NCBI GenBank assembly: GCA_043228905.1
Contig: JBHGNT010000003.1
Location: 22,692,001 to 22,756,000, forward strand
DNA length: 64,000 nt
Direction of reading: 5' to 3'
DNA from: Azolla caroliniana
Taxonomy: Eukaryota > Plantae > Polypodiophyta
In this document: positions 7,611 through 32,400 of the stretch, piece by piece
How the letters are laid out: every line of letters starts with the position of its first letter
How positions within the stretch are numbered: the stretch's first letter is position 1
Translations under genes and position numbers: made by a program
The notes under the pieces: model-generated
Told to the model about the DNA's origin: nothing
The model's input: only the letters and a program-made list of their open reading frames with translations
Database searches by the model: none

Positions 7611-10600
7611 TTAACCAAACTGATTTTTCGTTACGCCCATCTGGTGCCGAAGGGACCGTAAGCGATCCGCCGAAAGACACTTGGTCATTCCATTTGCGAC
7701 ATTATCGGTTGTGGATATCTTCTCGAGACCGATTTTCCCTGAAATGACGCAGTCCCGAACAAAGTGATATCGAACATCGATATGCTTGGAGGCGTTGTGG
7801 TGAACCAGATTTTTTTGACAAAGCAACAACACCCTAACTGTCGTTGTAGACAACTGGAGCCGAGTCGAGGTCAACTTGTCGAAACGTGTGCACCAGCCGA
7901 TTGAGCAATAAAGCTTCTTTTGCCGTGTCAGACGCAGCCATTGAGGTGGCTGTGCTCTCCTGAAGTTTCGACTTCCACGAGATTGCTCCATTGCCGAATT
8001 TGAAACAATATCTGGTTGTTGATTTCCGAGTGTCCATGCAGCTGGCGAAGTCCAAGTCGGTGTAACCGACTATGCCTGAGGTTGAGTTCGAGCCAAAAAG
8101 AATGCCATGGTCTTTTGTGCGAGCTAGATATCTGAACACATGCTTGACTGCGTTCCAATGCGATCGGCCTGGGTTGTGCATGAATCTGCTGACGACTCCT
8201 ACGGCGTGAGAGATATCAGGCTGTGTCGCGACCATCGCGTACATAAGGGAGCCGACTGTCGGTGCATACGGTACCGACTTCATATCTTCCCCCTCCGGAC
8301 CGGATGTCGGGCAATCTCGCTGAGACAGCCGAAGGTTAATGGGGAGCGGGGTCGAAGCATACTTGGCCGAGTGCATGTTGAAGCGTTCCAAGACACGTTC
8401 GATGTAGTCGATTTGAGCCAAGAAAAGTTGTCGTGTATCGCGATGTTGACTAATCTTCATACCAAGTATGTGTCTTGCCGAACCAAGGTCCTTCATGGCA
8501 AACTTCAACCATAGTTTCCGAACGAGTTCAGTGAGCTCTCCAGCATGCCGGTCGGAGAGTAGCATGTCGTCCACGTAAATGATGAGGAAGATGGGAGACC
8601 CGTCTTGAGTTGTTTTGGTGAAGAGACAGTGGTCCTCATCGCTCTTGGAGAAGCCGACTGATTGGATGAAGTCGTCGAACTTCTTGTACCACTGTCGGGG
8701 TGCCTGTTTCAGGTCGTATAGACTCTTCATGAGTCGGCAGACTAGATGTTCCTGGTTGGATGCCACAAAGCCTTTCGGCTGCTCCATATAGATTTCCTCC
8801 TGTAGGTCACCGTGGAGGAATGCCATTTTTACATCTAGCTGAATAAGCTCCAAGTTGTCAGCAGCCACGACGCCGAGCATGAAATGAAGGATGGTCATTT
8901 TCACCACTAGTGAAAAGATTTCGTCGAAGTTGATGCCATATTCTTGTCGAAATCCCTTCGCAACTAATCTGGCCTTGAACTTTGGGTTGGTCAAGTCGGA
9001 CGTCTCTCTTAGTCGATAGACCGACTTACACGGAAGAGCATGTCGATTCAACCAAGTCCCAAGTCTTGTTTGCGTAAATGGAGTGCATTTCCGACTCCAT
9101 CGCCAGATGCCAGGTGGCTGAGTCGGCAGATGTCGATTCGCCGGCGTTGGTAAAGAAAATTCCAGGAGAGTACCTTTCCGGAGGTTGCGACAGTCTCTCG
9201 GATCTTCGAGGTATGACTAGACTGGTCACACCGGGTATAGGTGTCGGATGGTCGGAAACCGAGCCACTCGGTTGTGCTGAATCGGTGGATTCAAGACGAG
9301 AGATGTTGGTTACCCGTGAAACCGATCTCGTGTTGTGGGTTGGGCCTTCATGAAGGGTTGGCACTTCGGAGAATATTACCCTTCGGACTCCAATAGGCCT
9401 TTCGGCCATTTTATGCGTCCGAACATCAGACGATTTGCTTGTGCTCGAGGTCCCAGAGTCGGTATCTGATCTCGCCGTCGGGTCCATATCCAAGGAAAAT
9501 GCATTTCCTTGATCTTGGTTCGAGTTTCCAGCGGTCATCTTTCGGTATGAGGGCATACGCCTCGCAGCCGAAGATCCTCAGCTTGTCATAATTCGGCTTA
9601 CTGCCGGTCCATGTTTCCTGAGGTATTTGAAGTCCTAGAGGTCTACTTGGCGACATATTTATTATGTGTACTGCCGTAAGTAGAGCCTCCGCCCAGAAGC
9701 CATTCGACAATCTCGAGTGTTGGAGCATGGATACTATGCGTTCTTGAATCGTCTGATTCATGTGTTTAGCAATTCCGTTCTGCTCCGGACTATAGGGTGT
9801 CGTATATTCACGTCAAATGTCGCGTTCCTGGCAAAATTTGACAAATGCTTCAGACTTGAATTCCCCTCCGTTGTCGGTTCGAAGACATTTCAGTTTCCGA
9901 CCGCTCTGATTTTCGACCATTGCAAGCCATTCGGAGAAGATCGAGAACACCCGATCTTTGGTTCTAATGGGGTAAACCCACACCTTCCGAGTCAAGTCGT
10001 CAATGAAACAGACAAAGTAGGAAGCACCGCCGAGAGACTAATGTGGCATCGGGCCACAGACGTCTGAGTGGACCAAATCGAGGGGACTCGATTCTCTTGG
10101 TGCTGATGTCGGGTGTGATGCGGCTACATGTTTGCCATATTGGCAATGCTCGCAGAATTGGTGATCCGAGAAGGAGAGCTTGGGGATGTAACCGGCTCTG
10201 GATAGGTGTGTTATGCCGGCCTTGTTGAGGTGTCCAAGTCGTCTGTGCCATAACGATGACATGGGGATATCAACCAGAAATAAGTCACCCTCTTTGAGCG
10301 TGACATATAAAGGGTACAAAGAGTGTACCTTTGGTCCTCGAGCAAGCAGGAGGTTCCCTTTGTGGAGTGTCCACCCTCTTGATGAGAACCCAACACGGAT
10401 GCCGACTTCATCAAGTTGTCCGACTGAGATCAAGGGTCTTGAAAGCTCATGAACGTGTCGGACATTGTGCAGTATGAGTGTAGAGCCACCCGGAAGGTTG
10501 AGCTCTACGGTGCAGATTCCGATTATAGCACAGTGCTGCCAGTTTCTGACTCGAATTGAGTCGGAGTGCCGGACCGAGTATTGCCAAAACTGAGATCAGT

Positions 10601-17352: not shown

Positions 17353-20300
17353 ATGAAAGTCTTGAACAACATTGTGTCTTCTAACAAACCTCGAAGGCTT
17401 CTTGTGGGGGAGAGAGCAGAGGTATTGTTCTGATTTTACCTTATATATCTATTCTTTGAGGGAAAAACTCTGAAATACCTCCAAGTTTTTCTTTATTTTG
17501 TCTTCTAACACAAACATAGAAAGATTGATAAATGAATAAATCAGTCTATGTTTTCTGTTAAAGCCTGTAATTCCTGATACACTTTTTGATTTGTTATGAC
17601 TATCAAGCTCTACATCCATGAAGCACATGCCCACAAATCAACAAATGCTGTACACATTAACCATTGAATGTTAAGTACTAGGTGCATCACATGAATCACA
17701 TATCTGCAAAGCTACAAAGTCCTCCCATATGCAAGATTAATTGTGAAAATATAACTTTATATTTAAATGGGTGGTTTGGCTGTTATCCAAGATGAAACAG
17801 CACTTCGGTTGCAGTTGTAACATCTTGTTCTGTCTCAAAGGCCATTTTGTTCTATATTAATGCATCTTTCTATCTTCTTCACAGGTTCGCCAGAGAGAAC
17901 GGGGCCTTAGAGGATCATGGCATTCAGGGACAATAGTGAAAGTCAAGAGTGGTCGCAGGGTGGTTGAATATGATGAACTCTTCAGTAAAGATGGCTCAAC
18001 AAAGTTAAAGGAGTGTATTTCTCTTTATGAGGAAATAAGATCGCAAACTTCAGGAAGACGGGGCACACCTCTTTTAGAATGGGATAAAAGTGGGCCTATT
18101 GATTCTAATAAACGAGGATTTATTCGGCCCATTCCACCTTCTTGCCTCATACCATCTCAACATAACTGGAAAAGAGGTCTTTTGGTTGATGCCTTTTACA
18201 ATGATGCCTGGTGGGAAGGTATTCTTTTGCATGATGTGGGATCATCTGATTGTGAACTTAAAACTAGGATCTTCTTTCCAGATGAAGGTGATGAGCTTGA
18301 AGTGTTATTAAGAGATATAAGGGTCTCTCAGGAGTGGGATGAGGCAAGGGGAACATGGGCAGTTCGGGGATATTGGTTTTTTGAGGGCAGAGGTGACCTT
18401 GGCCCTCTCAAGAAAATATGTATGAAAGCACCATGTCCTCTAAAAGCCTTATGGAGACAGAAAAGGTTTTATAGTTCAGAAGATTTATCAATACAGGAGG
18501 AAAGAATCAATAACCAACATGAAGCTGAGAACACTCTTCAGGTAGAAACGCAAAAAATCCCAGTGGAACCAATGTCTATGGAGGCCGTTATATGTGAAAA
18601 AACAAATTATGAAGAGGGGGCATGTGTAAAAGAAGAAAAATATAGGATAATGAAAGATAAAATTAGTCTTTCAGTTGAAGCTGGAGAAAACATTATTGTT
18701 GTTGATGGAAGCAACCATACAGGTTATACAACAGACATTATTCAAAAAGAATCAGACTTGGTCCTCACACACATTCCTATTTTAGATGGAAGTATGGTTG
18801 ATGCATCAAGGCACACATTGTCAATAGAGGGTTCAGTTCAAAAGACCAAGAAAAGAAAGATTTCTTTGTGCGATGATGAAGGAAAAGTGAGACCAAGGAT
18901 CACAAGAAGCACATTTGAGCTGGGAAAAAGAACAAGTGATGATGACCAAACAAGTTGTGATAAGCAGCAAGAATACAGAGAAGATGATCTTTATTCTAAA
19001 GCAATGGTTGATACACTGTCATCTGTATGTGAATATAGTTGTCGAGGAGTGGATACAAATGACTCCAGAAAAGTTGGAGTCATTTCTCCTGAAAATTATA
19101 CGCCGTCAAAAGTAGGGGTGCATGAAGCACGGAATGCAGCTAGAGAATTTCTACTCAGTAATGGATGGAAAATTGAGTCACGAATACGTCCCCGTGGTTC
19201 TGGAATGAGAAATGAATCTGTGTATATATCACCTGATGGGTGTCGATTTGTTTCCTTGACATCAGCTTGCAGAGGATTGAGGACTGGCAGAGAAACCAGT
19301 AGCTCTTTGGTCAGCAACAAACACAAGATCATAGATTCATACATGATTGCAGGAGGTTTAAAACTACCATTTGCTGAGCAGATTACTCGAAGTGATGGGT
19401 CAACAAAAGATTTATATAACAAAGATTATACTCATGTACCTGAGCTCATGGATTCTAGATGTGGTTCTGCCACTCTTGAGAAAAAAAATGCTAAACTAGA
19501 TGTTCCAGCACAATGCCATGAAGATATGAAAGTCAAGAAAAGGAAATTAACCCTAATAATGGAAAGCTCATGTAAAAGGAAAAATGAAGGAAATAATGAA
19601 ACAAAACATAAAAGAGGCAGTCTGCCTCTTAAGGGAAACAGACATACGCGAGAAAACAAGGGATCTGGTGTTGAAGGAAGTTGCCGGATGCAAGTGTTAA
19701 TGTCTTTCCCTGAAAGGGGAACAGAACAAAATGCTTCTCAGGACATTGGAGAGCAACCTCAATTTAAGAAGTCAACAGTTCTTTCTTGGCTTATAGACAA
19801 GGCCATTCTGAAAGAGAATGAACCTGTCTTCTATGTTAACAGAAAAGATGGACGCATTATGAAGACCGGTAAGGTAACTCGAGAAGGGGTTATGTGTGAC
19901 TGTTGCAAAGACATCTTCACTCTATCCAATTTCGAAGCACATGCCGGGAGTAAACTCCACAGACCGAGTGCCAACATTTTTCTGAATGATGGAAGATCAG
20001 TCTCAGACTGCCAACTTGAAGCTTGCGCTCTCCAAGATGTGAAAGAGAAGGAAGGAATTATTGATGTTAGCGATGACACTTGTGGTATTTGTAAGGATGG
20101 TGGAGAGTTGATCTTGTGTGATAATTGCCCATCAACTTTTCATGTTGATTGCATTGGCTTAAAGGTAAGTCCGATTTCCTTAAAGCCATTTTATTGCAGT
20201 GTATTCTTGATTGATTTTGTTGCTTAAAAGATGATCATGTTGTTTCATTTATCTTCACAATATCTTATCTGTAGGTCATTCCGGAGGGTGAATGGTACTG

Positions 20301-23300
20301 TCCAAAGTGTTCTTGTGGTGTGTGTGGAGCTAACCAGTTGACTGCTGATCTGGACAGCAGAATGTTTCGATGCATTCAGTGTGAACTTGAATGTATGTGC
20401 TTAGTTTTATGAGATGACCATCGGCTAATCAGGCAGTTTTATTGAACCTGCTTTTTTATGCAGATCATCTTAGTTGTGTTCCGGCATGTCCTATTGATCC
20501 ACTGAATCAAGCTACTCCATGTGTCTGGTTTTGTGATAAAAAATGTCAACAGGTATCACATACACTCATTAATTACTAAATTGAGTAACATTTTCAATAA
20601 GGCATTACCATTGATAACAAATGTGTTTACACATCTATTTTCAGATATTTGTGGGTTTGCGAAGACAGGTTGGAATAGTGCATCCTATGGAGAATGGTTT
20701 CTCGTGGATGCTATTGAGGTCTATGAAGAAAGAACAAGTGCTTTCTCAATCAGGTCTTGAACTTATGGCTGAGCACCACAGCAAACTTTCGGTGGCACAT
20801 TGTGTGATGCAAGAATGCTTTATGCCAATGATTGATCCACGAACAAAAATAAACCTTATTTCTCAGGCTTTATATAACCGAAGGTGACTCTCTCTAAGCT
20901 GCCAAGAAGTTGGCAAGGTCATATCAATCATGCTTTAGTAGACTTCGGTTTTACCTTTGTAATTCATCTTTGTCTAGAAATCTGTTTATCAGACAAGAAT
21001 CCTATGATTGACTAGCTTCTCAAATCGTCAGATACTTTTTACTAAAGCCCTTTGGCCTTATAATTATTACAATTAGAATAGTGGACTCAGGCACATGAAT
21101 CCTGTGATTGACTAACTTTTCAGGCCATCAGATACTTTTTAGGAAGCCCATTGGCTCCATCATCATTACAGATACGATAATGGACATAGGCATATGAATT
21201 CCTGTGATTGACTAGCTTCTCAGATTGTCAAATACTTTATGGAAGCCCACTGGCTTCATCATCAAATGTATGAAAATGCTATGATAGTGGTCTCAGGCAC
21301 ATGCAAATGTTAATGGAAATAATGTTATTTTGAACAACTATAATTGTGTGAAAATTTGATGTAGAGATTAATAAAAAGCACTAGTGTTTTCTTTAAGATT
21401 GAGGTATGTATTTGCCTTTCTTTAATGGAATATGGGTCTCCTAGATCAATGAAAAATTATTAAAGAGAAGTTGTCAAATCTCATCATTGAAATATTAATG
21501 CTTGTGATAATAATTACCTTTCTCTGCTGTGATGATCTCTTGCATATCCCAATCTCCAGGGAGTCTACCTATTCAGGAATATGTAGCTCTCTTAATACTG
21601 AAGGTGCTGCTTTATTTCTTCCTTTGCATCAATGAGTCGTTAATAATCTTTGTCTTGACTGCAAGGATCTACTTTAATTCTTTTGTAAACTTCCCGGAAA
21701 AAAACTTTCCGTGAGGTATATAGCTTTGATTTGATAGTGTAAAGGATGCTCATTTTTCATTTGTACATGGTTTAAATTTGAGAGCAATTCAGTCATCTGA
21801 GGCAGAATGAATGCAATGAGATATAATAGAGTAATATAGTATTGTTTGGTTTCAGATCTAAGGTTAATCGGCTCAATTATGGTGGATTTTACACCATTCT
21901 TTTGGAACGGGGAGATGAGTTAATATCTGTGGCCACAATAAGGTTCATGCCTAGGTCTCTTGTAGAACAGTTTTTATCCCCTCATTTTCATTTCATAAAA
22001 TCTTTTTCTTGTTCAATCATATAGAGTACATGGAGCAAGGTTTGCCGAGATGCCTCTTATTGGAACTCGCTATCAATATCGTCGTCAAGGCATGTGCCGC
22101 CGTTTGGTGAACGCTCTTGAGGAGGTAAAAAGCTTTGTTATAAAATGTGCAATCTTCTCTAAAACAGTTACGTTCACTCAAACTAATCTTAAATCATAGT
22201 TTTCTTTGGATTTCTAGATGCTAACAAGTATAGGAGTGGAGAAGTTGATCCTACCTGCAGTCCCTGAACTGCAAGATACCTGGATAGATGCATTTGGTTT
22301 CCAGCAAATGAGCCTTCCTGACCTCCAAGAATTGAGTAAATTGAACTTGATGACTTTTCCTGGGACATCACTTCTTCAAAAGCATTTGTTGAAACCTCTT
22401 ATTGATTCTGTTGATCACTCACATAGCTATGTTCGGATTGGTAGCTTGGAGACCCCATCATACAAATCTGTGGAAAATTTTGTCACCATGGATCATTCAT
22501 CTTTATATAATGGTTTTCGAGAAGGAAATATCTATGAAGATATTTCTTCAATGAATTCTCAGATGTTTGATTACACACAAGAAATAATGTCAGATAATCA
22601 AGGTATTACCATGCCGTCAAACATTGGAAGGCCGAAAAATCGAATGCGGTATAAAGCTACAGCTCAAAGGTATCCATCTCTAATATGTTCTCACTAGTTA
22701 TTAATCTATCTCCAATTTTCCAATTATTTATGTGAACTTGAATTGATCAGGTTCAACCTTTTTGGGTTGTACAAGTAGAACATTTGTGCAATTTTTTGTG
22801 GTTTTTGGGATTTACTACATACAGCATTGGTTGCCAACTTTAGTGTAATGCTGGGCAGTTAGGCACAAACTTCAAAAATTGGAAAGCCCCTGCATGGACC
22901 AGAAATTTAAAAATGAATGTCTAACTCGAGAAGAATTGTTGAAACTCTGAAATTGTACACATCAGCTAAACTTTAAAGGTGGTGTGAAAACAGTTTTATA
23001 GAGAATTCACCATGTTGCAAATGTTCTAAGTCAAAGAAACTAATTCAATAAAATTGATTCCTGGAAAAATATGAGGCAAATGTTATGTGGAGAAGCACAA
23101 GTTTGTTTTTTTATGTACATGTTTGACACATTTATTGTGTGAGAGACTCTCTCTAGGATTGTTCATGTCATGAGATCTTGTAGAGGATCCTGGTGAATTA
23201 GGGGAAAGTATATGACATGGGTTTCTTGGGACTTCCCAGAAGCTTGATTTTGATATAGGCCAACCCAATGCAGAAATGTATAGTTAGATTTTATGAATGA

Positions 23301-26300
23301 GCCTTAGATTTCTTATTGATTTGTTCGCAATTATCATTTGTAAGTCCTCTTGTTTACAGAAAGTGTATATATTCTCGGGATTCTTTGAAATCCATTTGTT
23401 TTAAGAGACATTCACGATTGATCCGATTCTTTTCAACCTTTGACAGCCTTGTGTTGAATTTGGTGGTTAGCATCTGAGATACTTATCTGGGGGGTTTAGA
23501 ATTTTACTTTTAGAGAGACACCTTATCAAGATTTAGGGCATAAGATGCAAAGGGTCAGGAAGATATCCAACACTGATTATATGTTTTTGGTTTTCGATTT
23601 TTGAGGTAAAACCAATTGTAGTTGTGTTTTATGAAAAAGCTCAGGAAGGCTTTTTGACTTTTGGAGGGAAACCAATTTTAGTTTTTCTTCATACAGTAAT
23701 TTTTATTTTTGAAGTGTTGAAATTTGAAAGAGACGATATTATCGAGGCATCAAAGCTACATCACCAAACATCTTTGGGTGAAGTGAAGTAGATAGTGCGA
23801 AGAGAGAGTGATGGGCAGCAGATTGTGTAGGCCAGAAACATCCTAGCCAATATTTATATCATAACTTATCTAGCTTGGATTTGAAAGTGTCACACCATGC
23901 ATTCTATAGTAAAGACCAGTGCAAACTCAGCCAAACATTGTGAGCATACTCCACACACCCATATTTCCTTCAGACCTTATAGCTACAAGGTTAAACTTGT
24001 TTATGATACTCTGTAAATGTCTTTGACAGTATTTTGAATTTAAAACCACACTTTTTTCACTGTTTTAGCAATAACTTGCATATATTATTCATGCCGATGA
24101 TTAATGATGTGTTATTTGTTGACTGGGCTATTCATTGCAGCCATGATGATGCTTCAGGTGTTGGAAAATGTCTGGATGATGATATATATACAAGAGTGGT
24201 TGTTGGAACAACCAGATCGAAACGGCTGGTAAACATAAAAAGCAAAACTCATATTCTGATGATAGGGATGTGCATTGTTTTTTCAAGTGAGAAGGAAATT
24301 CTTTTTCTGTGCTCCTTTACTCCTGCTTCCCTGCTGATTGCATGTGGATGCTATGAAGAAAGTGAAACTAGATAGTCTCATTTTAAGCCCATGCATTGAA
24401 CTACAGTGTAATTAGGTGTTTTTTGTCATTTATCTTTTTGCATTACAAATGATAATCATGATATTCATCTCATTACTGGCCTTTTTTAAGTTCTAGTAGT
24501 AGGCTCTTGCATGATCTCAAAATCATTGCTGCTACGTACAGATTGAATTTGGCTGATTTTGGGGAAAACATTAATTGGAGTTCATTGTTATGGTCAAAAG
24601 AACTCGCTGTATATATTCGAGAAATGTAACGATTATGTAACTGAATATCACAGCATTTTATTTTACCTGCAGTTGATAGTCCTGTTCTTAGTATACCATC
24701 TTTGATTCTTATAATGAGATTTCCACTATGCTGGAAAGAAAGAGAAGATTCAATTAATACTGGGAAACAGTGAAATGAAATTGGTTGTTTTTTAGGTGTT
24801 TTTGAGTGAAGTAATATGACTACAGTGTTTCTGAGGTAAGTTTAAAAATATCAAATACTGGAGTATTATCTACTCTTATACTGCAAAAAGTTTGTGCCTC
24901 CTTGCGCTTTCATATCAATCATCTGGTTTTGCTTACTCATTTCTGGGAATATTCCTTACCAATGCATTTGGTAGAAACGATTGACTAACTTAAAACATGC
25001 TGTCTGGACTCTTCTGTGTCATGCAGCCTATCTGATTCTTGAATGGATTCCTGGGAATATACCTTACCAATGCATTAAATAGAAACCATTGACTAACTTA
25101 AACATGCCTTCTGGACTCTTGTGTGTAATGCAGCCTATTTGATTCTTGAATGGATTTATTGGCATATACCTTACCAATGCGCTAGGTAGAAACCATTAAC
25201 TAACTCAAACATGTCTCCTGGACTCTTCTGTGTAATGCAGCCTATCTGGTTTTTTAATGGATTCCTGGGAATATACCTTACCGATGCATATTAAGTAGAA
25301 ACCATTGACTAACTTAAAACATGTCTTCTGAACTCTGCTTGTAATGCAGTCTATCTGATGGGTACCTTTCCTGGACTAAACACCAGTGTTGTATGCTAGT
25401 TTCAAACTGCTTGTGCTCTTTCACTCATCATCTGCTCCTGTCCCTTCCCAAGTTGTAGCAGCTAGGTTTTCCTTGCTTTGAAGGAACTCATTCTTATCAA
25501 ATCTCAAGGCCACTTGGATTCTGGGGCTAATACTTATGTAATTAATCTGTCTCCACTCATAATTAGGCTGTGAACACTCAAGCTATTCCATAGATATGTG
25601 AACATTTAGGCTATTCCAAACAAATGTGTGCTCTTGATGCTGCCTTTATATGAATATGATCATTGTGATAAGTGAGCACCTAGGCTAGGGTCTAGCTGAG
25701 ATATGCTTGAAGTGTTTTACCAAAACAAATGGTCTATGCCTTGCATGACATTTGCGTCTATGATTGTTAGTGACTAGGGTCTATCTGAGATGTGCGTGAA
25801 GTGTTTCACCAAAACAATTGGTCTATACCTTGCATGACAGTTGCATCTATGATTGTTAGTGCTTCACGTTGTATTCAAGTATGTGTATACTTGTCTGTGC
25901 ATTGCTATGTTCTGAAGTCCATTGGAGATTGTATGTCCTATTAACTTATTTCTAGACCTAGGGCTGTTGTATGTCCCAAGAGGTGGGCTATTTGCCCATT
26001 AAATTGGTATGTGAGCTGAGTTTAGAATGTGACCAGACCTTATTGCCCATATCTGGAAACTCTTCTTTTTCTGATGTAGTGATTGTCTACTTTTGTGCAG
26101 GTAAAATCAACAAGATGGGTAGCAGATGGGTTGAGAGAATTGAAAGATTCAAAGCAGTTCAAACGAAATTCTCTAATCGAAGGAAACTCAACAAAAAGAC
26201 CTGCAAAACAATCAGTTAAAGATGGTAAGTATGAACCAGAAAATGAAGCTGAAAACTATGATGTTCTTGATTATAATTGATTCGTAGAGAATATAAGAAT

Positions 26301-29300
26301 AAGAAGGGAACCATTGTATGTATATCTAAATACTATGGAGAATAATGCTGCACCAGAAACTTCAGTTTTTTCAACGAGTGAATCTGTGAATGTTTATTTT
26401 TTGACTTGTACTTCACTGGTTCTACTACCTGAAACTTCCAGGTGCAAATGCTGAAGAGACTGCAATCAGGCATACAAATACATTAAAAGGATCTATGCAT
26501 CTTCTGTGTAGCAGCAATGTCTTGATGGATGAAATACAGTTTTGCCCCAAAACCTACGTAAGGAGGAAGAAAAGAAAGAATACACAGGATGATTCAAAGG
26601 CGAATAATGTGTCTGTAGATCAAACATCAACCACGCCAGTCAATGGCAGTAATAGCAAATTTGTATCTAGTTCAATACCATCCTTTTGTCCCAGTTTGAT
26701 CGGAAGTCTTCGACATGGGCAAGGTATGCCATATGATTCTTTTGAGGCTTTATCATGATATTTTTTAGTCGCTATGCTTGTTGGTCTAATGGCATCCAAA
26801 ACCATCGTTAAGCATGCTATTAAAGTAATCATTCTTGGACTTATTCTTGCCACTCAGTAATATAAAAGGATTTATTTATGCAAATTTGGAAACATGTTTC
26901 GATTTTGTATAATTGAGGGTATTCTCTGAATAGAGTGTATGCACAATCAAGATTGAAAGTTCAATCTTCCCAAAGGAGAGATTTTGTGACTGCATAACAT
27001 GTTGAACACAAAAGCCACTAATATGCATCCTAGATGGTAGACATTTGAAGAAAATCCATTGGACATGTGATTAACCTTGCTAAAGACTCCAGTGGGCCTA
27101 GGAGATGGTAAAAATATTATTAAAAGTAATCTGGATCTAAAATAAGATATAAAAGAACTCATGCTATTGTATAGTTCAAAACATTTGAATGTACGAAACA
27201 ATTCTTTTAGTTGCTTCCTGTGATCTCTTGAAATTGGGCAAGCCGCAGCTGAGGGCCAATGGTCCCTAGATCAGATGAGCCATACATGCAGCTCCTGGAT
27301 TGAGATTAGCATTGGGAGCTGATGTATGTGGAGGTACCTAAAGTTGGGCTTATAAAGTCATTTTAGGGTAGACCCTATATAAAATCAGTTAAAATCTATA
27401 GGTGAGTGGTATCCAATAGTTTTTTTGAAGAGGTGACTCGTAACAGGTAATGATAGATTCATTTAAAGTTCTGAAATTCAGCTTTGTCGCTGATGATCCG
27501 TAGAGGTCATTGTGGAAGCCCTCCATGGAGGTTTTTAGTGTCGAAATATTTCTAAACTGCTTGCTTTGTTTTTAATGTTTGGGCTCTTTGTTATTTATTC
27601 TCTTTGATTTAACATTAATAAACAAATGGCAAAAGTAGTGGATGTCTTTGGGCCAACAGAAGAAACCTAGCTTAATGGAAGTGAAAATAAGTGGTAGTGA
27701 GTAAAAAATCTCAAGGAACTGTTTTTTTGTTCATGTAAGATTTCTCATGGTGGTTTGGTGGGGTTCTCTGCCCCCTTTAAGTTCCTCAGGCAGGTTTCAT
27801 CTTGATAGTGTAGTTTATTCTTTCATTGCTGTTGATAAACGTGACAATATTTTTAAAATTTTTAATTAGAATGTCCCTTGAAAGTTGCATCTTTTTCTCA
27901 CACTAGTAGCCCATCACACATTTATTAACCAAATTTGGGCTTGATAGTATTACTGTTTTACAGTCTTGTAATCACTACTTATTGTCATGGGTGGCAATTC
28001 AGATATGTTGGCCAATGATCTGAACATTGTGGGTGGCATGAGAATGTCAGTTCATGATCCCAATTTGATCCATGGCAATGTTGAGATTGCTGATGATTTC
28101 AATCTTATGGGTGGCAAAGTAGAGATGCTGGCCGATGGTTCAAATGTAACAAGTGAAGAAGTAGAGATACTGGCTAATGATTCAACTGTTATCGGTTACA
28201 AAGCAGAAGTAGCAGCCAAAGATTCAAATGTGTTGTGTCGTGATATAGAAATAAAAGCCAATGGTTTCAATGTTAACAGTGGCAACATCGAGAAAATGGT
28301 TGATTCTAATGCTCTTGGGGCCAATGTAGAGATGCCGGATGGTTTCAATGTTAAATGTGAGAATGCAGAGATTGTGGCTGTTGATTTCCGAGGTTGCATT
28401 GCAGATATGCGCTCTGATGATTTCAGTGCTACACTTTGCAATGCAAAGTTTCGAGCTAATGATTTCAATCCCACATGTAACAATATAGAGATGGCAATGG
28501 ATGATTTCAATATCTCGGTTAGCAATGCAGGGATGCTGGCTGATAATTTCAATACCAGAGGTGGCAATCTAGGTATTCTAGCTAATGGATTCAAATCCAC
28601 AGATGGCAATGCAGAGATACTGAATAATGATTTAAATGCTACATGTGGTAATACAGCTATTAAAGATAATGACTCTAAAGCTACACATAGCAATGCAGAG
28701 ATATTTGTTTCTGATTCCAATGCTAAACGTGTCATTGCAATTCCAGATAAAGTTCTCAATGCTACACATAGCAATGCAAACATTCTGGATAATGACCCTA
28801 GTGCTACGTATAACAATGGAGAGATAGTGGCTGGTGATATCAACAACACATGTAGCAGTACAGAGATGCCAGCTCATATTTTCAATGTCAAACAATTCGG
28901 TAATGGAGAGATTTCAACTGATGGTTTTAGTGTCAGAGATGGCCCTGTAGACATATTGTCTGCCGATTTTGATGCCACAAGTGGAAATAAGGAGTTTTCA
29001 GCTGATGACTTTAATCCTACCTGTGACAATGCAGAGGTCTTGGCCAATGGTTTCAATGCTATGTGTGGCAAGGATGAGAAGTTGAATGATGATTTTCGTA
29101 CATGTGGTGATGCTGTGATGCGAACTGGTGATTTCAGTGTTGCTCATGGAAATACTTTTATACTGAGTGATGATTCCAATGGGAAAGTTGGAAATGTTGA
29201 GATTCAAACTGATGGGCCCAATGGTATGGGTCATCTTGCCAAGTTACCAACTGATGATTTCAGTGACGGCAACATAAAAGTTCTTACCAGTGACTGCAGT

Positions 29301-29432
29301 ACAAATAACAACAAAAATTGCAATTCACTAATGTTGACTGATAATTTTGATGTTTTATGTGGCAACACAAAAAACAGCATTGAGAGATTAAGCAGTGGTG
29401 CAGTCAACAGTCTTCAGAGGTTAGCCGTCTGA
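17353..29432 (+). CDS. IDM1/ROS4-like chromatin protein: tandem Agenet/Tudor, Tify-binding Zn domain, PHD fingers and GNAT acetyltransferase, with a possible C-terminal repeat exon
   Basis: Exons with consistent phase: 17353-17421, 17885-20164, 20275-20392, 20464-20552, 20645-20883, 21856-21942, 22025-22124, 22218-22669. Less certain exons: 24141-24228, 26101-26224, 26442-26723, 28003-29432 (1785 aa if all are used). Motifs: [12 protein letters not shown] (Agenet), TVLSWLID...[42 protein letters not shown] (PHD), [21 protein letters not shown] and [19 protein letters not shown] (GNAT). Confidence 0.88.
20995..21300. repeat. Intronic ~100-bp tandem repeat x3
   Basis: GAATCCTRTGATTGACTARCTTYTCAG... 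at ~20997, 21097 and 21195. Confidence 0.85.
24940..25360. repeat. Intronic ~108-bp tandem repeat x4
   Basis: TGGGAATATACCTTACCAATGC...AGAAACCATTGACTAACTTAAAACATG at ~24942, 25051, 25159 and 25265. Confidence 0.85.
27987..29432 (+). CDS. 481-codon ORF made of ~33 imperfect 14-aa repeats (consensus close to EILANDFNATCGNA); last exon of the IDM1-like gene or a separate ORF
   Basis: Stop-free for 1.4 kb in AT-rich DNA. The repeat period is clear at the protein level while the DNA has diverged, which suggests coding constraint. Confidence 0.75.
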   Translation: MGGNSDMLANDLNIVGGMRMSVHDPNLIHGNVEIADDFNLMGGKVEMLADGSNVTSEEVEILANDSTVIGYKAEVAAKDSNVLCRDIEIKANGFNVNSGNIEKMVDSNALGANVEMPDGFNVKCENAEIVAVDFRGCIADMRSDDFSATLCNAKFRANDFNPTCNNIEMAMDDFNISVSNAGMLADNFNTRGGNLGILANGFKSTDGNAEILNNDLNATCGNTAIKDNDSKATHSNAEIFVSDSNAKRVIAIPDKVLNATHSNANILDNDPSATYNNGEIVAGDINNTCSSTEMPAHIFNVKQFGNGEISTDGFSVRDGPVDILSADFDATSGNKEFSADDFNPTCDNAEVLANGFNAMCGKDEKLNDDFRTCGDAVMRTGDFSVAHGNTFILSDDSNGKVGNVEIQTDGPNGMGHLAKLPTDDFSDGNIKVLTSDCSTNNNKNCNSLMLTDNFDVLCGNTKNSIERLSSGAVNSLQRLAV

Positions 29433-32400
29433 TTTCAAATGGAAAGGAAGAAAGACTTTCTCTACGAGAAGATTAGACATGAAATGCATCTAATATAATT
29501 GGGAAACGGTGTTAGAAGTTTGAAGACTATTTAAATAATTCTACTGGAAGATATCAGTGAGATCTGCTGAAAGTAAGAGATTATATATGAAAATGATCTA
29601 ATACGATTGGGAAATAGAGTTGCACTTCCAAAACCATTTAGTGTGATGATATATCTACCAGAAAGACATCACTCAGAGATCTACTGATAGTGAAGAGGAC
29701 TTGATAATTTTATGTCCAAAATATGTCTTAGTTGGAAGGTTTGGTGATTGATTGACATTTTTACCAATGCGTGTACAGCACTAAAATCTAAGGGTCAGCA
29801 TTTCTTCAGTTGATCTTCTCATGAGTTTTTGTTCCCTTTCTTTTGTGAATAGCTGAAAGCTATTATGAAGCCACATAGTTTCGTAATTTTGCAGAGATTT
29901 TCAGCTATAAAGGCTGCCTTTGGGCAGTTCTGTAACGTATATACAGATACATATACCTTGTAAATATCGATATTGGATCATGAAAATGAGAAGATTGACC
30001 CAGTTTTCTTTCTAGAAGATGAGGGAAGATATCACGTTTTTATTGTAGAAAGAACTTTGAGGATCTATTACTTGCTCCAGAGAAATTACATGATGATAAT
30101 ATCTATTTGACCTCTTTCTTTTGTCTCTGTTTTGCTCAATGATTAAATCAAGTCTCTCTTGTGCGGGACACTATCTTGCTTTTGAATGGGTAAATATATC
30201 CCAACAAATATGCTGAGTAATGTTATTGTTTATGAGTATCAATGTGTACAGGTCTGTACATGCATAAAGATTTATTCAAAGTCTTTGGTGGAACAAAATG
30301 AAACATCTTGTTCATTAAAATGAACTGAACAAACAGTTTTCTTCTGTGTCACATATATTAGAGAGAAAGATGTATTTGTGGCCATGGAGATCTTGGAAGG
30401 TAACATTGAGTGAAAACTAATCTTGTTAGTCTTTTATTATTGTTGTTTCCTCACAGTAGAAATACCCATCTTATTATTTCTACAGCATTCTAATGTGGGG
30501 TCATGTGAGTTCTTGTATTATTGTTACCCGAATGCCCATTTTCTATAATTATGGTATGTAAGTCTCATTAAATTGGAAAAAGAAGAGAATTCACGTGTCA
30601 TTACTTTGCAGAAACTCAACTTTTTGGGTGCTATGCTTATTTTACTTGATAACAGAATATGGGTCTCCCACATAATTGAGAGGAAGCCATTCACTACACT
30701 CCATACTTTTATTCTTTGGTTGAAGGGACTTGGATCCATCGTGATTAGTACGAAACAAATGACAACATATTGTAGTTAGTTATTTTCGTGCTAGACACTT
30801 AAAGCCATTTTATGGATCACTTCGCGACATATGATACCTATGATTCTCTCCTTTAGAATATGACGGAATACTTTAGTGAAAGTAACCGAGTAGCTTTCTT
30901 ATTAAATTGCAGCACATATGGTATTTACTCTATTGAGGCATTGACAAGATGACCTCCATGCTCAAGCCTTAGGGAATTGTTTCAACAATGCTCTGTGAAA
31001 ATTATTCTCGAAGATGGAGTTGGTGGTTATGAGAGAATCATTCTTCAGGAGACAAGGTCCTTCAACCAAGCATTGATGTGACAAAGCGTCGTACCACAAA
31101 TAAGTTCTACAATTATTATATGACAATCAATTAACATGTGGTAATTTTAAGTGATGTTTGGCTTCCCAAAGCTCTTTGAACGGTAGGTTCACTTCTAGAT
31201 ATTTGAAGACAATGTTTGAATAAAACTTGCTTGCCTCTAGTAAATCCTCGTCCTCAACTAATCCAATGCTTTGATTTCAATCTCTTTACTAGTTCAAGAT
31301 CATGACAAGTATTGCCATTCTCATCACGTGATACACTAGTCAAGATGTGGAAGAGAAGACAACATTTTCTTTTTGGTATTTAGGTTTTAGCTAAGGCATC
31401 GCATTGTATTGAAACAATGTAATATAACTATATAATGGTGTGTTTGCTGACACATTCTTGAATTTTTTGGTAACCAATTCAATCCCTTATTGATGTTAAA
31501 GAGATGTCACTTTCTCGAGGTTCATGGAAGAATTTGTTGAGGAAAGTTGTTCAAATTGGAAGGGGGCACAAGAAGAATTCAAATAGGTGATAGAGAAAGA
31601 GATAGCTTGAGTTGATGTCATAGGTTCAACTTATCATGTTTTAACTTAGTTCATTGGGATAGGGAAGTTATAGGATGAAAGAGAAAATTTTCTACATGCA
31701 ATATAAAGTTATGAGGCCCAATATGGAGGTATATGATAATGATCATAATGAAACATGCCAATCAATGTATGACATTTTGGATGCATTTATGCATATGAGG
31801 GCCGGCACCAAATACATAACTCATGAGGCCTAATCGTCCACTAACAACCTTGATTATATAAATACTCCAAAAGGCTTCAATCAACATCAAGTAATCGTAA
31901 CATTGAGAGTCAACTCTGGAGAAAATATAGGCTTGAGCTCATTCAAGACACATACATCACATGGTAGCTAGGTTTGTTTCTTGTGTGTCGAGAATGTGTT
32001 CAATTCAAGACGATAGCTCATATGTTGCCCAATTCCAATACCAGAGATCAATAATGTTGGGCAATCAATTCATACTTAGGATGGACCTTATTGTCATATG
32101 ATAGTATCAAATGATTTCATATGATAGATACATTGGAAGTGTCCCACTCTGTGGTCCTCAATAGGTGTTCATATTTTGATCTCTATGGAGTACACAAAAA
32201 GAAAAAAAATCTCTGTTTTCTTCCCCTGTTTTCTTTTGTTCTGTTTGTTTGCCCAATCTTCTCTTCCTGAATCAAGGGGGGCTGGTTCTCTTTCTTGTGA
32301 CAGAATAGTGCTGCAATTGCAGTCACAAAATCAGACTTCCAGAAACTGTCTCAGCATCTCTTTCACCCACATCTGGAATTCTCTCCACACATTGGTATTC

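What the first reader, a model, noticed from the sequence alone, without database searches (positions are those of the whole stretch)
27964..29432. IDM1-like histone acetyltransferase gene ends in a ~33 x 14-aa beta-solenoid-like repeat ORF that an alternative 3' splice site could switch on or off
Seen: a 481-codon ORF of 14-aa units (E-[ILM]-x-A-[ND]-D-F-N-[AV]-T-C-G-N-[AV]). Each unit splits into two 7-residue halves with alternating hydrophobics and an N/D/G turn. Known: heptad xxNxVxG repeats build the two-sided 14-residue beta-roll of grass ice-binding proteins such as LpIBP. I know of no such domain on IDM1/ROS4-family proteins. Seen: the upstream exon ends in phase 1 at 26723. The strong acceptor TTTTACAG (27963) gives G+TC TTG TAA, so the protein stops 15 nt before this ORF's ATG (27987). 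The weaker acceptor TTCAG (28002) fuses the whole repeat in frame. Inference: either a splice-controlled solenoid tail on a chromatin regulator (scaffold or polymerisation module), or a bicistronic/reinitiation arrangement.
Basis: partly seen in the sequence, partly recalled or inferred. Interest (0 to 1): 0.8.

Follow-up and report, generated by a model that had tools for sequence, protein, structure and literature searches.

The report
Repeat tail on fern chromatin acetyltransferase
In this fern a 42-base DNA repeat has become the last coding exon of an IDM1-like chromatin gene and is spliced on in frame as a 476-residue acidic tail that other ferns' proteins lack; the tail likely acts as a loosely constrained charged appendage, and no on/off splice switch was seen.

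Summary
The ORF is real: 481 codons of 14-residue units (autocorrelation z about 10 at lag 14). It is the terminal coding exon of a 12-exon Agenet-DUF7028-TDBD-PHD-IDM1_C gene (1785 aa). In 4 of 4 transcript-like contig sets the only joint from donor 26723 goes to the 'weak' in-frame acceptor 28003; none goes to 27964. So the fused form is the main product and the switch is unseen (contigs drop rare isoforms). A sister paralog in the same genome ends in a related 336-residue tail, predicted to splice in frame, and has no ATG at the position of 27987, which argues against reinitiation. Four fern homologs that share the last conserved motif stop where the tail begins. Selection keeps the frame (no stops where 4-5 are expected; the paralog's array shifts frame past its stop) but hardly the residues (dN/dS about 0.7-1.0). 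One relative's contig carries a frameshift that removes the last ~120 residues. A beta-solenoid is neither shown nor excluded: AlphaFold2 gave pLDDT 34-37, and the ryegrass ice-binding motif is absent. Verdict: a lineage-specific repeat tail on a known chromatin enzyme family; moderate interest.

The parts
17353..17421 (+). Exon 1 (coding part), predicted start ATG 17353
   Evidence: Only one of 5 candidate ATGs gives an open 1785-aa frame; not covered by the laid reads
17885..20164 (+). Exon 2: Agenet, DUF7028 (MBD-like position), TDBD and first half of PHD finger
   Evidence: Pfam E 8.9e-13, 2.1e-10, 2.3e-21, 2.2e-7; MBD only E 0.027
20275..22124 (+). Exons 3-7 (20275-20392, 20464-20552, 20645-20883, 21856-21942, 22025-22124): rest of PHD region and acetyltransferase region with the GTRxxxRRQGMC motif at aa 974
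   Evidence: All GT-AG and in frame; motif located; matched exon by exon in the paralog
22218..22669 (+). Exon 8: IDM1_C (end of the acetyltransferase region) and linker
   Evidence: Pfam IDM1_C E 8.7e-16
24141..24228 (+). Exon 9, conserved motif shared with fern and lycophyte homologs
   Evidence: Loose ends before 26100 match its 3' end in 4 of 4 runs
26101..26224 (+). Exon 10
   Evidence: Covered in 4 of 4 runs; joint to exon 11 in 3 of 4
26442..26723 (+). Exon 11: basic RRKK motif, ends at the ancestral C-terminus position; phase-1 donor
   Evidence: Four fern homologs end 58-71 residues after this motif; covered in 4 of 4 runs
27962..27971 (+). Upstream AG (27963) followed by a stop two codons on; not seen used
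   Evidence: No joint to 27964 in 4 runs; one of 5 similar YAG sites in the intron
27987..27989 (+). ATG that opens the ORF on the DNA; intronic in the observed transcripts, part of a partial first repeat unit
   Evidence: Lies 14-16 nt upstream of the used acceptor; the paralog has TTA plus its own acceptor at the aligned place
28003..29432 (+). Exon 12 coding part: 476-residue tail of about 33 degenerate 14-residue (42-nt) units, 72 D/E versus 33 K/R
   Evidence: Joint 26723 to 28003 in 4 of 4 runs; periodicity; units; composition
29433..29998 (+). 3' untranslated region (at least to 29998; to 30533 in a relative)
   Evidence: Contig cover in X14 to 29998 and X3 to 30533; first frameshifting indel at 29433

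Best explanation
The repeat ORF is the last coding exon of a fern Agenet-PHD-acetyltransferase (IDM1-like) gene, joined in frame through acceptor 28003, and it likely works as a long acidic appendage whose length and polar, negatively charged make-up matter more than its exact sequence. Shown: transcription, the in-frame joint, a related open tail in the sister paralog, absence from other ferns' homologs, selection on the frame and near-neutral amino-acid change. Inferred: a 42-nt unit was amplified at the 3' end of the gene before the duplication that made the two paralogs; each unit tends to carry an in-phase AAT[GT]CAG, so the array supplies its own frame-keeping acceptors; the branch point probably lies between 27964 and 28001, so AG 27963 is skipped. 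Inferred and untested: the polyanionic tail would contact basic surfaces (histone tails, or the protein's own RRKK motif about 55 residues upstream) and tune chromatin binding or acetylation.
For: Joint 26723 to 28003 is the only joint from this donor in 4 of 4 runs laid (4 studies; 4 of 15 listed runs); it is bridged with long flanks in X14 (128 nt) and X3 (one 2793-nt contig from upstream exons to 29344), and with 25 nt on the short side in X1 and X2; most intron bins have zero depth. 12-exon GT-AG model open for 1785 aa. Paralog on G000:C1: same phase-1 donor, strong in-frame acceptor, 1709-aa open model with a 336-residue tail of the same unit type; the two are sisters (100/100) inside the fern clade. 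P0002-P0005 end 58-71 residues after the RRKK motif versus 532 and 399 here; 0 of 19 homologs show a strong 14-16 period in the last 350 residues (best z at lags 14-16 is 2.8, versus 10.3 and 6.3). Frame selection: 32 of 32 and 19 of 19 unit hits inside the ORFs are in frame, but only 4 of 10 in the paralog's array past its stop; neutral simulation expects 4.7 and 3.8 stops, 0 seen (P 0.012, 0.022); L010 has 1 frameshifting indel in 1189 ORF bases versus 13 in 1148 flank bases (P 0.0007). Weak residue selection: 10 synonymous, 27 non-synonymous, 0 stop among the 37 listed ORF differences (dN/dS 0.74-1.02); 21 versus 54 in L010 (0.70-0.97); ORF and 3' flank diverge alike (75/1265 versus 52/884 in X3; 89/1189 versus 93/1148 in L010). 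Polar unit positions stay polar and W/Y are scarce against the simulation. AAT[GT]CAG is in the frame-keeping phase in 6 of 6 and 7 of 7 places.
Against: No experiment or proteomic data on the tail; the charge-based role is inference. Charge-hydropathy places both tails slightly on the ordered side (0.464 versus boundary 0.443; 0.482 versus 0.454), and the units alternate hydrophobic and polar residues, so a fold is possible. L010 (one low-coverage contig) loses the last ~120 residues, and the paralog stops about two thirds through its array, so full length is not essential. The runs are only guessed to be RNA, and contigs drop rare isoforms. The paralog's splice is predicted, not observed. 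The 37 differences are those of the 40 shown out of 172 listed. The simulation treats units as independent, which overstates significance, and the unit HMM was built from the ORF units themselves.
Confidence: 0.55

Rival explanations
1. The tail is constitutive but folds as a parallel beta-solenoid, one 14-16 residue coil per unit with Asn ladders, and serves as a rigid rod or stacking surface on the acetyltransferase.
For: Two short strands per unit with GN and DD/ND turns; turn positions resist hydrophobic change (z about -2 in both paralogs) and position 14 stays hydrophobic in the window copy (94% versus 79% simulated); charge-hydropathy on the ordered side; indels remove or add whole codons; the single-sequence model coils into a beta-helix over residues 1-354 (best Z 12.3, rmsd 4.0 over 294 residues, 9% identity).
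Against: pLDDT 34 for that model and 37 with almost no strands when a 98-residue piece was folded with a 9-row repeat alignment; AlphaFold2 is reported to favour beta-solenoids for repeat sequences (PMC11795689, abstract read); dN/dS near 1; the F at position 5 is often S or P (66% hydrophobic versus 84% simulated); unit length drifts from 12 to 19 and differs between paralogs (14 versus 16).
Confidence: 0.25
2. The tail is a tolerated passenger: an exonised minisatellite with no function of its own, kept open only because frameshifted tails are mildly harmful.
For: Near-neutral substitution; truncation in L010; the paralog's array decays past a stop inside it; other ferns do without it.
Against: Simple stops would shorten the tail harmlessly under this view, yet 0 are seen where 4.7 and 3.8 are expected in two paralogs that are 53% identical in exon 2.
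Confidence: 0.12
3. Acceptor choice switches the tail: 27964 gives a tail-less protein ending where other ferns' proteins end (or a decay-prone message with a long 3' UTR), and 28003 gives the fused protein.
For: AG 27963 has the stronger pyrimidine tract; its product would match the ancestral length; the paralog also has a pyrimidine-rich AG 99 nt upstream of its acceptor that leads to a stop two codons on; contigs drop minor forms, and a decay-prone form would be rare.
Against: 0 of 4 runs show the joint; 5 similar YAG sites occur in this intron; the two upstream AGs are at different distances and blastn found no similarity between this intron and the paralog locus.
Confidence: 0.07
4. The ORF is translated on its own from ATG 27987 by reinitiation after the short isoform's stop (bicistronic message).
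For: ATG lies 15 nt after the stop of the 27964 form; the ATG is also present in a relative (P0025).
Against: The ATG is spliced out in all 4 observed joints; the paralog has no ATG there; ATG-GGT-GGC is simply part of the repeat unit.
Confidence: 0.01

Closest known systems
IDM1/ROS4-like plant PHD-acetyltransferases, Agenet-bearing members (Pfam Agenet, DUF7028, TDBD, PHD, IDM1_C)
   Same: Same domain order in exons 2-8 as 19 homologs from ferns, lycophytes, liverworts and seed plants; acetyltransferase-region motif intact. Arabidopsis IDM1 is described as a histone acetyltransferase of H3K18/K23 in a complex with MBD7, IDM2 and IDM3 (PMC11930289, passages).
   Different: A 476-residue repeat tail that none of the 19 homologs has. 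Orthology to Arabidopsis IDM1 itself was not tested; that IDM1 lacks an Agenet domain is recalled, not checked.
Grass ice-binding protein LpAFP/LpIBP beta-roll
   Same: 14-15 residues per turn, Asn/Gly-rich repeat added at the C-terminus of an older gene (PMC5744647, passages).
   Different: Its NXVXG/NXVXXG motif occurs 1 and 0 times in 476 residues (shuffle means 0.38); the tail is acidic and sits on a nuclear-type protein, whereas most plant ice-binding proteins are secreted; no sequence match in the PDB.
Notothenioid antifreeze glycoprotein origin (partial de novo gene evolution by repeat amplification)
   Same: A coding repeat built by duplication of a short unit at an intron-exon junction of an older gene (PMC6410882, passages); here the first unit straddles the acceptor.
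   Different: Here the host protein is kept whole, the unit is 42 nt, and the source of the unit is unknown; no selected new function is shown.

Membership tests
IDM1/ROS4-like acetyltransferase family | PHD finger plus IDM1_C acetyltransferase region | tested here: met
   PHD E 2.2e-7, IDM1_C E 8.7e-16, both above cut-off
IDM1/ROS4-like acetyltransferase family | MBD-like N-terminal region (feature recalled from the IDM1 literature) | tested here: inconclusive
   DUF7028 E 2.1e-10 passes; Pfam MBD only E 0.027, below cut-off
IDM1/ROS4-like acetyltransferase family | Orthology to Arabidopsis IDM1 | not tested
   No Arabidopsis protein among the 19 hits, so not in the tree
IDM1/ROS4-like acetyltransferase family | Acetylates H3K18/K23 and binds IDM2/IDM3 | not testable with these tools
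   Feature from PMC11930289 passages
Grass ice-binding beta-roll (LpAFP) | Repeated NXVXG/NXVXXG motif | tested here: not met
   1 and 0 matches in the window tail, 1 and 0 in the paralog tail, at shuffle level
Grass ice-binding beta-roll (LpAFP) | 14-15 residues per repeat | tested here: met
   Period 14 in the window tail; 16 dominates in the paralog
Grass ice-binding beta-roll (LpAFP) | Ice-binding activity | not testable with these tools
   No assay possible
Beta-solenoid repeat domain | Confidently predicted or solved parallel beta coil | tested here: inconclusive
   pLDDT 34 and 37; beta-helix matches at Z up to 12.3 rest on the low-confidence model; Foldseek best E 1.9
Regulated alternative 3' splice site | Both acceptors used in transcripts | tested here: inconclusive
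   Only 28003 in 4 of 4 contig sets; contigs cannot show absence of a minor form

The most novel reading that the evidence does not exclude
A new beta-solenoid domain arose from a 42-nt minisatellite, was grafted onto a chromatin acetyltransferase in one fern lineage, was kept open in both duplicates, and gives the enzyme a rod-like acidic surface for histone binding or self-stacking, with in-phase acceptors inside the array able to set its length.
Probability: 0.2. Interest if true: 0.7.

Novelty: new variant of a known kind. Interest (0 to 1): 0.36.

Why it matters
It is a clean, datable case of a large protein domain added from a DNA repeat to a conserved chromatin enzyme, with built-in controls: a sister paralog, a decayed part of the same array past a stop, and tail-less homologs in other ferns. 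It lets one ask whether selection on frame and charge alone can hold 300-500 new residues, and whether such a tail folds. It does not, on present evidence, show a new splicing mechanism or a bicistronic message.

Tried and rejected
No relative of the tail at E <= 0.001 among about 8000 scored candidates each at 264-842 aa and 843-2405 aa; weak evidence by the tool's own note. Full HMMER scan of 1.84 billion representatives gave 5 hits: two fragments from close relatives (P0020, P0021) and three unrelated low-identity repeat proteins (18-26%; P0022-P0024), rejected as compositional. No Pfam family for either tail. ESM Atlas: no usable hit for either tail. PDB sequence search with the repeat profile: best E 0.49; a YadA-type head entry (labelled Invasin) at E 0.7 is not significant. 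Foldseek on the low-confidence model: none at E <= 0.001. No run listed is on record as RNA. P0020/P0025 end in six unrelated residues at about residue 160; L010 carries the same variants and reads through there, so this end was taken as a likely assembly join, not a truncation. No other copy of the array was found in the genome beyond the two paralogs and the paralog's downstream part (lower bounds). tblastx of the window against 30 kb at the paralog showed no shared neighbour gene, so a whole-genome-duplication origin is untested. Earlier scan notes: none. Paper searches for a report of such a tail found none: IDM1+fern+histone acetyltransferase, At5g58610, ROS4/IDM1/Agenet/PHD/GNAT, IDM1 domain terms, minisatellite/exonization/C-terminal extension, Agenet/PHD/N-acyltransferase/fern; only listings were seen for these, and the library lacks most subscription papers. 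The original IDM1 paper was not held. Which of the two paralogs' acceptors is ancestral could not be decided.

Full report
Observation. The ORF at 27987-29432 is 481 codons. Its residues repeat at lag 14 (z 10.8) and 28 (z 7.6), weakly at 7 (z 3.2). Segmentation gives about 33 units with consensus LADDFNATGGNAEI.

The gene. Eleven upstream exons from ATG 17353, all GT-AG, join to 28003-29432 in one open frame of 1785 aa. Pfam finds Agenet, DUF7028, TDBD, PHD and IDM1_C upstream and nothing in the tail. A search with exon 2 among proteins of 1051-3000 aa gave 19 homologs, led by ferns; a tree of these 19 plus the two copies from this genome puts the window gene inside the fern clade. The genome is 523 Mb; that this is small for a fern and suggests a water fern is recalled and not tested.

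Which acceptor is used. Of 15 listed runs, 4 from 4 studies were laid on 25900-30900. None is on record as RNA, but cover falls on exons and the joints are GT..AG. The only joint from donor 26723 goes to 28003, in 4 of 4 runs. It has 128 nt on the short side in X14; in X3 a single 2793-nt contig runs from 1089 nt of upstream sequence through exons 10 and 11 to 29344; X1 and X2 have 25 nt on the short side. No contig joins to 27964. Contigs drop rare forms, so a minor isoform is not excluded. There is no AG between 27963 and 28002, so a branch point in that gap would explain why the weaker-looking site is used; this is inference. Five pyrimidine-rich YAG sites occur in this intron, so 27963 is not special.

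The paralog. A second copy lies on G000:C1, minus strand, 53% identical in exon 2 and sister to the window gene (100/100). It has the same phase-1 donor and a last exon of the same unit type, period 16 (z 6.3), reached by a strong acceptor (11 of 13 pyrimidines) that is in frame; the model is open for 1709 aa. That acceptor aligns with the window's ATG 27987: the paralog reads TTAG where the window reads ATGG, and the window uses the next in-phase AG 12 nt on. So the ATG is not conserved between paralogs and is intronic in the observed transcripts. The motif AAT[GT]CAG recurs in the frame-keeping phase 6 of 6 and 7 of 7 times. The paralog's splice is predicted, not observed.

Age and spread. 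Four fern homologs with the last conserved RRKK motif end 58-71 residues after it; the two copies here run 532 and 399. None of the 19 homologs has a strong 14-16 period in its last 350 residues. Searches with the tail found only fragments from close relatives. The tail therefore arose in this lineage before the duplication.

What selection keeps. The frame is kept: 32 of 32 and 19 of 19 unit hits within the ORFs are in frame, while the paralog's array runs on about 700 nt past its stop with only 4 of 10 hits in frame (the HMM was built from the ORF units). A neutral simulation from the unit consensus expects 4.7 and 3.8 stops, and 0 are seen (P 0.012 and 0.022; units treated as independent). 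In the laid contigs 4 of 4 ORF indels are multiples of three (+3, +6, -54, -81) versus 1 of 6 downstream, the first at 29433 (P 0.024); one intronic indel was left out. In L010, 3 of 4 ORF indels keep the frame versus 1 of 14 downstream; two of the three are shared with X3. The residues are hardly kept: 10 synonymous and 27 non-synonymous among the 37 ORF differences shown (40 of 172 were printed), dN/dS 0.74-1.02; 21 and 54 in L010, 0.70-0.97; between units 0.89 and 1.3. ORF and 3' flank diverge equally (5.9% versus 5.9% in X3; 7.5% versus 8.1% in L010). Against full-length need: L010, a low-coverage contig, has an 8-nt deletion at 29068-29075 that stops the frame near residue 362 of 481.

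Structure. AlphaFold2 on the single sequence gave pLDDT 34 with short strands over the first 240 residues. That model aligns to beta-helices (best Z 12.3, rmsd 4.0, 294 residues) but has no Foldseek match. A 98-residue piece with a 9-row repeat alignment gave pLDDT 37 and almost no strands. AlphaFold2 is reported to favour beta-solenoids for repeats (PMC11795689, abstract), so the coil is not evidence. For a fold: alternating hydrophobics, polar turn positions kept polar, charge-hydropathy just on the ordered side. Against: near-neutral change, F often replaced by S or P, drifting unit length. The ryegrass motif NXVXG/NXVXXG (PMC5744647, passages) is at shuffle level.

Mechanism. Shown: a repeat array is the in-frame last exon in the transcripts seen and is held open. 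Inferred: it grew by duplication of a 42-nt unit at the last acceptor, much as the notothenioid antifreeze repeat grew at an intron-exon junction (PMC6410882, passages). Most likely function, untested: an acidic appendage (72 D/E, 33 K/R; paralog 53 and 15) that would bind basic partners and tune the enzyme; that acidic tracts of chromatin proteins do this is recalled knowledge. I give this 0.55, a true solenoid 0.25, a passenger 0.12, a splice switch 0.07, reinitiation 0.01.

Verdict. A real, expressed, lineage-specific repeat tail on a known family of plant chromatin acetyltransferases. No description of it turned up in the paper searches listed under Tried and rejected. New variant of a known kind; interest 0.36.

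Noticed in passing
L005:7800-8490 (G000:C1 about 2191800-2192490, minus strand): The paralog's repeat array continues about 700 nt past its stop codon and shifts frame several times there: a decayed part of the same array.
   Followed up: yes
window:28105-29540: Run X1 holds two distinct haplotypes of the tail exon, one almost identical to the window and one like run X3's organism; X14 shows the same near 29160-29263. A hybrid, polyploid or mixed sample.
   Followed up: no
window:28673-28753: One X1 contig of the window type lacks 81 nt (27 codons, about two units) with non-canonical ends: a likely copy-number allele, not a splice.
   Followed up: no
L005:9600 (G000:C1:2193600, minus strand): The paralog has a pyrimidine-rich AG 99 nt upstream of its in-frame acceptor that would also give a stop two codons on, as AG 27963 does; no sequence similarity between the introns was found.
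   Followed up: partly
window:26225-26441: The intron between exons 10 and 11 has no spliced counterpart in the paralog model, where the region is one open exon (rc 7723-8290) and homologs P0002/P0004 are colinear with it; possibly a recently gained intron or skipped coding segment.
   Followed up: no
window:38097-39871: Six copies of a 295-bp unit at 99% identity: a very recent tandem array or an assembly expansion.
   Followed up: no
window:20993-21264, 24939-25359, 25685-25861: Introns of this gene hold several 89-107 bp tandem repeats, so local tandem duplication is common here.
   Followed up: no
window:56883-58802: Intron-less 640-codon frame with multicopper oxidase domains and higher GC.
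   Followed up: partly
window:1-11500: Broken copia-type retrotransposon remains on the minus strand; RVT_2 match at 7837-9216.
   Followed up: partly
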